Program-made: the position numbers and the translations under genes | Source: a virus | Virus genome (UHGV): UHGV-0228494 | Length of the DNA stretch: 45,812 nucleotides | Reading direction: 5' to 3' (one strand) | In this document: one piece after another, positions 25,977 to 26,318 of the stretch | Layout: each line of letters opens with the position of its first letter | Position numbering within the stretch: the stretch's first letter is position 1 | The notes under the pieces: model-generated | Told to the model about the DNA's origin: nothing | Databases searched by the model: none | The model's input: only the letters and a program-made list of their open reading frames with translations

Positions 25977-26082
25977 ACAGCCTTCCCCTGAATAAATTAA
26001 CCGCCACTTGCCATTCCGTACAGAAGTCGGATATCCTTCGCCCGAAAAGCATGAAACACATTTCTGCCATGCTAAAGAGAAA

Positions 26083-26114
26083 CCCCGGTATCAGCAGATA
26101 CCGGGGTTTTCTTT
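26083..26114. terminator. Terminator-like hairpin (CCCCGGTATC-AGCA-GATACCGGGG) with flanking T/A-rich runs, in the prophage B I-J intergenic insert
   Basis: Perfect 10-bp stem read directly; followed by TTTTCTTT on the + strand, and on the - strand by a weaker T-rich stretch (TTTCTCTT). Confidence 0.4.
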
Positions 26115-26181
26115 CATGCCCACCGATAATCCTGTTGGTTAAAACCGGTAATGGCATAAAAATTCTGAATATCTTCACATT

Positions 26182-26209
26182 TTCACACACTGACTGTGGC
26201 GCTTATAAT
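26182..26209 (+). promoter_or_regulatory. Candidate sigma70 promoter TTCACA-N16-TATAAT (+ strand, within I-J intergenic insert)
   Basis: Near-consensus -10 TATAAT at 26204-26209 with -35 TTCACA 16 bp upstream. Confidence 0.35.
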
Positions 26210-26215
26210 TTCGCT

Positions 26216-26313
26216 GCGTTAGTGTTTTTTTGCCCGAGTAACAAAAACAACTCCTTAACATTGATCTTCATTTGTCTGTCCCCGCAGCTCCGCGATCACT
26301 GCGGGATTTTTTT
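26216..26313 (+). ncRNA. Candidate small RNA (~95-100 nt) from the putative promoter to an intrinsic terminator (CCCGCAG-loop-CTGCGGG + TTTTTTT)
   Basis: Promoter-like element followed ~70 nt later by a GC stem (26281-26305) and T7 run; no convincing ORF with RBS inside. Confidence 0.2.
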
Positions 26314-26318
26314 ATGTT

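What the first reader, a model, noticed from the sequence alone, without database searches (positions are those of the whole stretch)
25977..26318. 342-bp island between I and J of prophage B with a promoter and two terminators: candidate sRNA
In lambda, and in prophage A here, I and J are about 60 bp apart. In prophage B they are separated by 342 bp. This insert has a near-consensus + strand promoter (TTCACA-N16-TATAAT, 26182-26209), a strong terminator (CCCGCAG/CTGCGGG plus T7, 26281-26313) and a second hairpin (26083-26114). Together they predict a ~100-nt + strand transcript antisense to the tail operon, with no convincing ORF.
Basis: seen in the sequence. Interest (0 to 1): 0.5.

Follow-up and report, generated by a model that had tools for sequence, protein, structure and literature searches.

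The report
Known prophage small RNA PasB

Summary
Tail genes I (26319-26999) and J (to 25976) lie on the - strand, 342 bp apart, against 60 bp in prophage A and in lambda. The gap holds a + strand promoter (TTCACA-N16-TATAAT), an intrinsic terminator with a U7 tail, and a second strong hairpin.

The predicted transcript is PasB, a published sRNA (Pearl Mizrahi et al. 2021, PMC8550237). In EPEC E2348/69 it is 83 nt, confirmed by Northern blot, dependent on Hfq, and has 37 RIL-seq interactions. It sits between the same two tail genes.

Window 26231-26313 matches PasB at 82 of 83 positions, and the published Northern probe matches exactly. The one difference is A instead of C at position 27, which fits the "PasB-2" variant of Zhu, Shabalina and Storz (bioRxiv 2026). 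This A27 allele is by far the commoner: exact in 847 complete-genome records against 38.

What I add:
- Position 27 lies inside the segment that pairs with the top published RIL-seq targets (napF, caiF, yijD ribosome-binding sites).
- The I-J locus is a mosaic family. At least four allele types occur in Stx and other lambdoid phages. They share promoter, A-rich tract, AUCUUC box and terminator, but differ in the pairing segment.

Verdict: already known; low interest.

The parts
26231..26313 (+). PasB sRNA, 83 nt as mapped in E2348/69. This is the A27 allele, probably 'PasB-2'.
   Evidence: 82/83 identical to NC_011601 1466343..1466261(-). The published Northern probe matches 26286-26308 exactly. 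This allele is exact in 847 complete-genome records.
26182..26209 (+). pasB promoter: -35 TTCACA, 16-bp spacer, -10 TATAAT. It predicts a start near 26216, which is 15 nt upstream of the published 5' end.
   Evidence: Promoter scan scores 11/12. Identical in E2348/69. The -10 is TATAAT, AATAAT, GATAAT or TATCAT in other alleles.
26164..26179 (+). Upstream box TCTGAATATCTTCACA, nearly invariant (2-3 positions of the central spacer vary). It is centred about 44 bp upstream of the predicted start and resembles a CRP site (TGTGA-N6-TCACA, recalled from memory). Its function is untested.
   Evidence: The flanking half-sites are invariant and 2-3 spacer positions vary across the 14 distinct sequences, although the -35 and spacer vary more. 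The pattern occurs once in the window against 0.42 expected by chance.
26240..26251 (+). A-rich tract AACAAAAACAAC, four A-R-N triplets. It is a likely contact for the distal face of Hfq.
   Evidence: Read from the sequence. An A-rich tract is kept in all allele types, for example AAGAAUAAU and AAUAAAAACAAAAC. The Hfq contact is inferred.
26251..26270 (+). Main pairing segment (PasB nt 21-40, CUCCUUAACAUUGAUCUUCA). It contains the anti-Shine-Dalgarno-like CUCC, the allele-specific position 27 (26257, A here and C in E2348/69) and the invariant AUCUUC box.
   Evidence: The best duplexes of 8 top RIL-seq targets fall on nt 21-46. Mean energy is -22.45 against -17.97 +/- 1.0 kcal/mol for shuffled targets. 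The A27 allele loses 2.2-6.4 kcal/mol on 7 of the 8. The segment between CUCC and AUCUUC differs between allele types.
26273..26280 (+). Second possible pairing site UGUCUGUC (nt 43-50), in the single-stranded stretch just before the terminator.
   Evidence: It is complementary to GACAGACA in the strongest RIL-seq partner, an RNA upstream of the holin gene of prophage PP2 (774 chimeras). The duplex is -23.6 kcal/mol, and 8 of 100 shuffles do as well. Zhu et al. 2026 place the PasB seed in this stretch.
26281..26313 (+). Intrinsic terminator of pasB: 7-bp G+C-rich stem, 11-nt loop, then A and U7.
   Evidence: The 3' arm CUGCGGGAUUUUUU (preceded by CA; CT in CP-1639) is invariant in all alleles.
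26080..26114 (.). Strong hairpin with T-rich runs on both strands, so terminator-like in both directions. It belongs to the left arm found only in the 342-bp form of the island.
   Evidence: Fold z = -5.96 on the + strand and -4.67 on the - strand. The left arm is absent from E2348/69 and from the 240-bp forms. Those carry a different hairpin, CAGGCAYCC..GGRTGCCTG, with one compensatory pair.
25977..26163 (.). Left arm of the island. It is specific to the 342-bp form and is exchanged independently of the sRNA body.
   Evidence: It is 100% identical in strain WS3294A, which carries a different sRNA allele type. No conserved ORF.
26319..26999 (-). Tail assembly gene I of prophage B.
   Evidence: Pfam Lambda_tail_I, E = 2.3e-16.
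23642..25976 (-). Tail tip gene J of prophage B, cut off at about codon 778.
   Evidence: Pfam GpJ domains; the second Ig-like domain is cut at profile position 67 of 105. The junction with J of prophage A is at 23641|23642.

Best explanation
The island carries pasB, a stand-alone gene for a small regulatory RNA that depends on Hfq. It is inserted between tail genes I and J of a lambdoid prophage and is transcribed against the tail operon.

- **Transcription.** It has its own sigma-70 promoter (26182-26209), so it can be made in the lysogen while the late operon is silent. It ends at an intrinsic terminator (26281-26313) whose U7 tail, together with the A-rich tract, should bind Hfq.
- **Action.** The unstructured middle (nt 21-50) pairs with other RNAs in trans. 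In E2348/69 the partners include the ribosome-binding sites of napF, caiF and yijD, several virulence mRNAs (map, espC, bfpB, cesD2) and, most abundantly, an RNA upstream of the holin gene of other prophages. Pairing across the Shine-Dalgarno sequence and start codon would block translation.
- **What is shown.** Identity with PasB is shown here. Expression, Hfq dependence and partners are shown elsewhere, for the C27 allele.
- **What is inferred.** Expression in this host, the repressive outcome, and the targets of the A27 allele carried here.
For: **Identity**
- 82/83 match to PasB, exact probe match, same flanking genes and strand, identical promoter.

**Published function (PMC8550237)**
- Northern band of the expected size.
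- RNA level falls in the hfq deletion: log2 change -6.8 in the activating condition and -2.4 in the non-activating condition.
- 37 interactions. PasB is the second RNA of the chimera in all but one of the significant pairs I read, as expected for an sRNA.
- PasB is higher in the non-activating condition.

**Pairing, my analysis**
- The top 8 targets pair with nt 21-46 better than shuffled targets do (-22.45 against -17.97 +/- 1.0 kcal/mol).
- The napF duplex has 16 contiguous pairs over the Shine-Dalgarno sequence and start codon. The caiF duplex covers GGAG and AUG. The 'fabR' peak lies on the yijD Shine-Dalgarno sequence.

**Conservation**
- Promoter box, A-rich tract, AUCUUC and terminator are kept across at least four allele types in 147 phage records and 1612 genomes.
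Against: - No expression data exist for this window's host or for the A27 allele.
- Rfam has no PasB model, so there is no independent family score.
- The authors found no common target motif for PasB: it has no entry in their Table S7.
- My pairing analysis uses only 8 targets and a simple duplex energy that ignores accessibility.
- The published 5' end (26231) is 22 nt past the -10 box, so either the start or the length is not settled.
- The regulatory outcome for any target has not been measured.
- The terminator stem never varies, so it gives no covariation support.
Confidence: 0.9

Rival explanations
1. PasB acts mainly in cis as an antisense RNA. During lytic growth the antiterminated late transcript reads through the I-J gap and is fully complementary to PasB. 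Duplex formation could then trigger cleavage between I and J, or set the level of J. This could hold alongside the trans role.
For: - The gene is always between I and J and always on the opposite strand, in every genome and phage examined.
- Both forms of the gap also carry a terminator-like hairpin that faces the tail-operon direction just before J.
- This suggests that transcription across the gap matters.
Against: - No I or J chimeras appear in the RIL-seq table: the locus tags have zero occurrences in that file. However, the tail genes are almost silent in those cultures (mean counts 4.8 and 15).
- PasB has many trans partners.
- Lambda and prophage A work with a 60-bp gap and no such RNA.
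Confidence: 0.15
2. It is an anti-sRNA (sponge) of the AgvB/AsxR kind. Its C/A-rich tract AACAAAAACAAC would mimic targets of the core sRNA GcvB and titrate it.
For: - The tract resembles the CACAACA consensus bound by GcvB (PMC4104026).
- Like AgvB and AsxR, the family has a conserved 3' part and a variable upstream part.
Against: - No match to any Rfam family at gathering thresholds. The permissive scan of 25800-26500 listed neither AgvB (RF02702) nor AsxR (RF02703).
- Predicted PasB-GcvB pairing is no better than chance: -21.3 kcal/mol, and 749 of 1000 shuffles do as well.
- No gcvB-pasB pair in the sRNA-sRNA blocks of either RIL-seq condition.
- The location differs: AgvB and AsxR lie downstream of the late promoter.
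Confidence: 0.03
3. The island is a decayed or unannotated protein-coding insert (a 'moron'), for example the 66-aa hypothetical protein annotated in phage ASU11 or the 128-aa + strand ORF. On this view the promoter and terminator serve that gene.
For: - ASU11 annotates a hypothetical protein over the left arm.
- A 128-aa ORF spans the island on the + strand.
Against: - Neither ORF has a Pfam match.
- The + strand ORF is cut to 94 aa in WS3294A and is absent in YYZ-2008.
- Alleles differ by indels of 1-2 nt.
- The left arm is missing altogether from the 240-bp forms, which still keep the sRNA module.
- The transcript seen in E2348/69 is 83 nt.
Confidence: 0.03

Closest known systems
PasB (E2348CN_0006) of EPEC O127:H6 E2348/69, prophage PP6 (Pearl Mizrahi et al., Sci Adv 2021; Zhu, Shabalina and Storz, bioRxiv 2026)
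   Same: - 82 of 83 nt identical.
- Identical promoter and terminator.
- Same position between I and J and same strand.
- The published Northern probe matches exactly.
   Different: - Position 27 is A here and C in E2348/69. It lies in the segment that pairs with napF, caiF and yijD.
- The gap is 342 bp here against 240 bp in E2348/69, with a different left arm and hairpin.
- The A27 allele is the common one (847 records against 38), but the experiments were done on C27.
Divergent I-J intergenic alleles in Stx1a/2a/2c/2d-converting phages, YYZ-2008, CP-1639, JLK-2012 and PhiR5_1
   Same: - Same locus and strand.
- Nearly invariant upstream box.
- A -10 element, U-run, A-rich tract, YUCC, the AUCUUC box, and the terminator 3' arm CUGCGGGAUUUUUU.
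   Different: - Only 74-82% identical over the module.
- The 10-15 nt between YUCC and AUCUUC, and the stretch before the terminator, are allele-specific.
- Whether they are expressed, and what they target, is not known.
AgvB and AsxR anti-sRNAs of EHEC prophages (Tree et al., Mol Cell 2014; Rfam RF02702, RF02703)
   Same: - Short prophage-encoded RNAs that bind Hfq.
- Conserved 3' terminator part with a variable upstream part.
- A-R-N motifs.
   Different: - No sequence or Rfam match.
- They lie downstream of the late promoter near stx and the lysis genes, not in the tail operon.
- They act by sequestering core sRNAs (GcvB, FnrS). I found no support for that here.
PasA, PasC and PasD sRNAs of the same study
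   Same: - Prophage-encoded RNAs that bind Hfq.
- Found by the same RIL-seq screen.
   Different: - Unrelated sequences.
- They sit near the esterase, holin and lysozyme genes, and are linked to one another and to EPEC/EHEC.
- PasB is inherited independently and is often the only Pas sRNA in a genome.

Membership tests
PasB sRNA | Near-identity to the 83-nt PasB sequence of E2348/69 | tested here: met
   82/83 identical; the only difference is position 27, A against C.
PasB sRNA | Contains the sequence detected by the published Northern probe (AATCCCGCAGTGATCGCGGAGCT) | tested here: met
   The reverse complement matches 26286-26308 with 0 mismatches; 0 matches are expected by chance.
PasB sRNA | Lies between tail assembly gene I and tail tip gene J, on the strand opposite to them | tested here: met
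   Pfam assignments of the flanking ORFs. The arrangement is the same in NC_011601 and in 14 further loci.
PasB sRNA | Own promoter, plus an intrinsic terminator with a U-tract of at least 4 (the criterion used in Table S6) | tested here: met
   Promoter scores 11/12 and is identical to E2348/69. The terminator has a 7-bp stem and U7.
PasB sRNA | Expressed as an RNA of about 83 nt whose level depends on Hfq | not testable with these tools
   Shown only for E2348/69 by Northern blot and by RNA-seq log2 change of -6.8 and -2.4 in the hfq deletion.
Hfq-dependent trans-acting base-pairing sRNA | Single-stranded seed complementary to several unlinked target RNAs | tested here: inconclusive
   For the C27 allele, the published RIL-seq targets pair with nt 21-46 better than shuffles do. 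For the A27 allele in this window, the same sites are 2.2-6.4 kcal/mol weaker and no interaction data exist.
Hfq-dependent trans-acting base-pairing sRNA | Hfq-binding modules: 3' U-tail after the terminator and an A-R-N or U-rich internal tract | tested here: met
   U7 tail and AACAAAAACAAC are present and conserved in kind across alleles. Actual binding was not tested.
AgvB/AsxR anti-sRNAs | Match to the Rfam models RF02702 or RF02703 | tested here: not met
   No Rfam family reaches its gathering score anywhere in the window. Neither family appears in the permissive scan.
AgvB/AsxR anti-sRNAs | Mimics the target site of a core sRNA and pairs with its seed | tested here: not met
   Pairing with GcvB is not better than shuffles (749 of 1000 do as well). 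No chimeras of PasB with a core sRNA appear in the RIL-seq sRNA-sRNA blocks.

The most novel reading that the evidence does not exclude
The I-J gap of lambdoid phages may be a conserved 'slot' for an sRNA gene with an exchangeable pairing segment. Different phages, including most long-tailed Stx phages, would then carry alleles aimed at different host or phage RNAs.

On this reading the prevalent A27 allele in this window would have a target set different from the one mapped for the rare C27 allele of E2348/69. The single change sits in the middle of the duplexes with napF, caiF and yijD.

A further unexcluded reading is cross-talk between prophages. The strongest PasB partner is an RNA upstream of the holin gene of other prophages.
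Probability: 0.4. Interest if true: 0.4.

Novelty: already known. Interest (0 to 1): 0.2.

Why it matters
- **Annotation.** The result shows that a reader working from raw sequence can recover a true sRNA gene. It puts a name on a stretch left unannotated in all 20 listed RefSeq matches, out of 1612 complete E. coli genomes that carry it.
- **Limits of the published data.** PasB belongs to the accessory regulatory layer that prophages add to pathogenic and commensal E. coli. Its published partners include virulence mRNAs (map, espC, bfpB) and anaerobic-metabolism genes (napF, caiF). The experiments used a rare allele, and the common allele differs inside the pairing region. The published target list should therefore not be transferred without a test.
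- **Family.** The wider allele family in Stx phages has not been studied.

Tried and rejected
- **Rfam.** The scan of the whole window at gathering thresholds and the permissive scan of 25800-26500 gave only chance-level hits. PasB has no Rfam family.
- **AgvB identity.** I first suspected AgvB because of the C/A-rich tract. I rejected this on location, on the Rfam result, on the shuffle test against GcvB and on the absence of gcvB-pasB chimeras.
- **Consensus fold.** RNAalifold on 10 alleles gave nothing useful, because MAFFT misaligned the 5' arm of the terminator in one allele type and the stem never varies.
- **Phrase search of the RIL-seq table.** Searching the supplement with multi-column phrases failed because tabs are not matched. 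A positive control also returned nothing, so that negative result is void. I read the table parts directly instead.
- **Protein-coding reading.** Rejected: no Pfam match and the frames are not conserved.
- **Holin-upstream partner in this window.** I searched the window for the partner's site and found none.
- **A hairpin alignment** was made with wrong coordinates and redone by script.

Full report
**1. The observation**

The region lies between two - strand tail genes.
- ORF 26319-26999 matches Pfam Lambda_tail_I.
- ORF 23493-25976 matches the GpJ domains.
- The gap between them, 25977-26318, is 342 bp.
- The equivalent gap is 60 bp in prophage A of the same window (I ends at 21394, J starts at 21455). 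It is also 60 bp in lambda (15444 and 15505).

- The promoter scan finds TTCACA-16-TATAAT on the + strand at 26182-26209, scoring 11 of 12.
- The terminator is CCCGCAG (26281-26287) paired with CTGCGGG (26299-26305), followed by A and T7 (26307-26313).
- The second hairpin (26083-26106) is very stable, with z = -5.96.

**2. What it is**

Rfam gave nothing. A megablast search showed the 342 bp in 1612 of 5426 complete E. coli genomes, with no feature annotated under any of the listed matches.

The literature search led to two papers on prophage-encoded 'Pas' sRNAs. Table S6 of Pearl Mizrahi et al. (PMC8550237) describes PasB as follows.
- Position: NC_011601.1, minus strand, 1466343..1466261; 83 nt.
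- Location: prophage PP6, between E2348C_1436 and E2348C_1437.
- Northern probe: AATCCCGCAGTGATCGCGGAGCT.

The window matches this description.
- The reverse complement of the probe occurs once in the window, at 26286-26308, with no mismatch.
- In RefSeq the two flanking genes are 'tail assembly protein' and 'phage attachment tail tip protein J'.
- The E2348/69 gap aligns with the window from about 26160 to 26318 at near-identity, including the whole promoter.
- The 83-nt PasB corresponds to 26231-26313 with one difference, at position 27: window 26257 is A where E2348/69 has C.
- Zhu, Shabalina and Storz (bioRxiv 2026) state that PasB and their variant PasB-2 differ by a single nucleotide at position 27. 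They also state that the E2348/69 sequence is not the most prevalent variant.
- In line with this, the window allele is an exact match in 847 complete-genome records and the E2348/69 allele in 38.

The feature is therefore PasB, most likely the PasB-2 allele.

**3. What is known about PasB, from the papers**

- It was confirmed by Northern blot.
- Its level drops strongly in an hfq deletion: log2 change -6.8 in the activating condition and -2.4 in the non-activating condition.
- It is more abundant in overnight LB cultures than in DMEM.
- It has 37 RIL-seq interactions.
- Zhu et al. report 1158 hits in complete genomes. PasB is often the only Pas sRNA present, is embedded in the phage structural operon, and appears to have been acquired independently of PasA, PasC and PasD.

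**4. How it most likely works**

I read the PasB rows of the RIL-seq table.

PasB is the second RNA of the chimera in all but one of the significant pairs I read, which is the usual behaviour of an sRNA. The exception is a minor reverse-order row (24 chimeras) for the holin-upstream partner.

The strongest partners were as follows.
- An RNA from the gap upstream of the class II holin gene of prophage PP2 (+ strand 743482-743611): 774 chimeras in 3 libraries. Its paralogue in PP5 gave 54.
- E2348C_2648: 71.
- napF 5'UTR: 70.
- map: 67.
- yhhX: 57.
- nlpD gap: 56.
- hflX: 55.
- fabR: 50.
- Weaker partners: ygeV, bfpB, espC, cesD2, caiF, tolC 5'UTR, rplX, ftsZ and others.

I fetched eight of these target regions and computed duplexes with the unstructured part of PasB.
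- The best duplexes fall on nt 21-46.
- Their mean energy is -22.45 kcal/mol, against -17.97 +/- 1.0 for shuffled targets.
- napF forms 16 contiguous pairs covering its Shine-Dalgarno sequence and start codon.
- caiF pairs over GGAG and AUG.
- The 'fabR' peak lies on the Shine-Dalgarno sequence of the next gene, yijD.

A recurrent target motif, UGUGAAGG, pairs with PasB CCUUCACA, which includes position 27. With the window's A27 allele, the predicted duplexes are 2.2-6.4 kcal/mol weaker on 7 of the 8 targets.

The holin-upstream RNA instead matches nt 43-50 (UGUCUGUC against GACAGACA). That duplex is -23.6 kcal/mol, and 8 of 100 shuffles do as well. This is the stretch that Zhu et al. proposed as the seed.

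The status of each step is as follows.
- Shown here: identity with PasB.
- Shown elsewhere, for the C27 allele: expression, Hfq dependence and partners.
- Inferred: translation blocking, Hfq contacts through U7 and the A-rich tract, and everything about the A27 allele.

**5. The wider family**

A sensitive search of phage genomes found 147 records.
- 13 match the whole island at 99% identity or more (among those listed, the PPompW phages and ASU11, all at 100%).
- 127 match only the right half, at 60-80% identity. These are Stx1a, Stx2a, Stx2c and Stx2d phages (YYZ-2008, Stx2a_WGPS8 and others). CP-1639, JLK-2012 and PhiR5_1 also match only the right half (74-82% identity).

In every locus I fetched where both flanking genes are annotated, the match lies between I and J, and the gap is about 240 bp.

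The alignments show at least four allele types.
- Shared elements: a nearly invariant upstream box (TTCTGAATATCTTCACATTTTC), a -10 element, GCGTTA, a U-run, an A-rich tract, YUCC, an invariant AUCUUC, and an invariant terminator 3' arm.
- Allele-specific elements: the 10-15 nt between YUCC and AUCUUC, and the stretch just before the terminator.

The modules recombine.
- WS3294A has the window's left arm and promoter joined to another sRNA body.
- 1504D004 joins one promoter type to a third body type.

Zhu et al. report only 24 phage hits and 'a few nucleotide differences' among PasB variants. The divergent alleles therefore seem to lie outside their set. This is a modest extension and does not amount to a new kind of element.

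**6. The second hairpin**

It belongs to a left arm (25977-26163) present only in the 342-bp form.

The 240-bp forms have a different hairpin at the same relative place, CAGGCAYCC..GGRTGCCTG.
- One pair changes on both sides: C:G in 6 loci, T:A in 5, and one each of the intermediates.
- On the tail-operon strand it is followed by TTGTTTTTGTG.

The window's hairpin has T-rich runs on both strands. I read both as terminator-like elements facing the tail-operon direction just before J. That is an inference, and their role is unknown. Late transcription under Q antitermination would be expected to pass them (established knowledge of lambda).

**7. Rivals**

- A cis-antisense role on the I-J transcript is not excluded and could coexist with the trans role. 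There are no I or J chimeras, but those genes are silent in the cultures used.
- An AgvB-like sponge role for GcvB is rejected.
- A protein-coding reading is rejected.

**8. Open point**

The -10 box ends at 26209, which predicts a start near 26216. The published 5' end corresponds to 26231. A 98-nt form would pair its U-run with the A-rich tract. Either the 5' end estimated from coverage is imprecise or the RNA is processed.

**9. Verdict**

- The feature is already known.
- Interest is low, apart from two points: the allele studied experimentally is the rare one, and the difference lies in the pairing segment.

Noticed in passing
window 23453-23984, junction at 23641|23642: The J genes of prophages A (+) and B (-) meet head to head, both truncated (about codon 729 and about codon 778). 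None of 5426 complete E. coli genomes spans this junction; the best matches stop exactly at 23641. In strain 4/1-1 the two segments lie about 183 kb apart and in the opposite relative orientation. This could be a rare rearrangement or an assembly mis-join in a repeated gene.
   Followed up: partly
window 26164-26179: The box TCTGAATATCTTCACA keeps both half-sites in all allele types (2-3 spacer positions vary), although the -35 proper varies. It matches 9 of 10 half-site positions of the CRP consensus TGTGA-N6-TCACA (recalled from memory). This would fit lower PasB levels in glucose-rich DMEM. The spacing to the predicted start (about -44) is not the classical -41.5, and the pattern alone is not beyond chance (0.42 expected).
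   Followed up: partly
window 26008-26114: A weak + strand promoter-like site (TTGCCA-18-TATCCT, 9 of 12) lies upstream of the strong hairpin. It could give a second RNA of about 70 nt in the 342-bp form only. There is no expression evidence, because E2348/69 lacks this arm.
   Followed up: no
L025 (NC_011601 743482-743611, + strand), not in the window: The strongest RIL-seq partner of PasB (774 chimeras) is an RNA just upstream of the class II holin gene of another prophage. The same stretch is 99-100% identical in phage 434, YYZ-2008 and Stx1a phages. This hints at RNA cross-talk between co-resident prophages.
   Followed up: partly
window 26257 (PasB position 27): The single difference from the published PasB lies in the centre of the predicted duplexes with napF, caiF and yijD. 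The A allele is exact in 847 records and the studied C allele in 38.
   Followed up: yes
L013 (WS3294A) 601-943 and L014 (1504D004) 528-764: The I-J gap is a mosaic. The left arm, the promoter and the sRNA body occur in different combinations in different genomes, which implies recombination within about 300 bp.
   Followed up: partly
L002 (phage ASU11) 1481-1681, equal to window 25957-26157 (-): The ASU11 record annotates a 66-aa hypothetical protein over the left arm, overlapping the start of J. The ORF has no Pfam match and is absent from the 240-bp forms, so it is probably a mis-annotation.
   Followed up: partly
window 26216-26251: A U-run (26225-26231) and the A-rich tract (26240-26251) can pair in a 98-nt primary transcript. 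Both runs are kept in all allele types, with a variable loop between them. This could be a 5' stem or two separate Hfq-binding tracts. Covariation cannot decide, because both are homopolymer-like.
   Followed up: no
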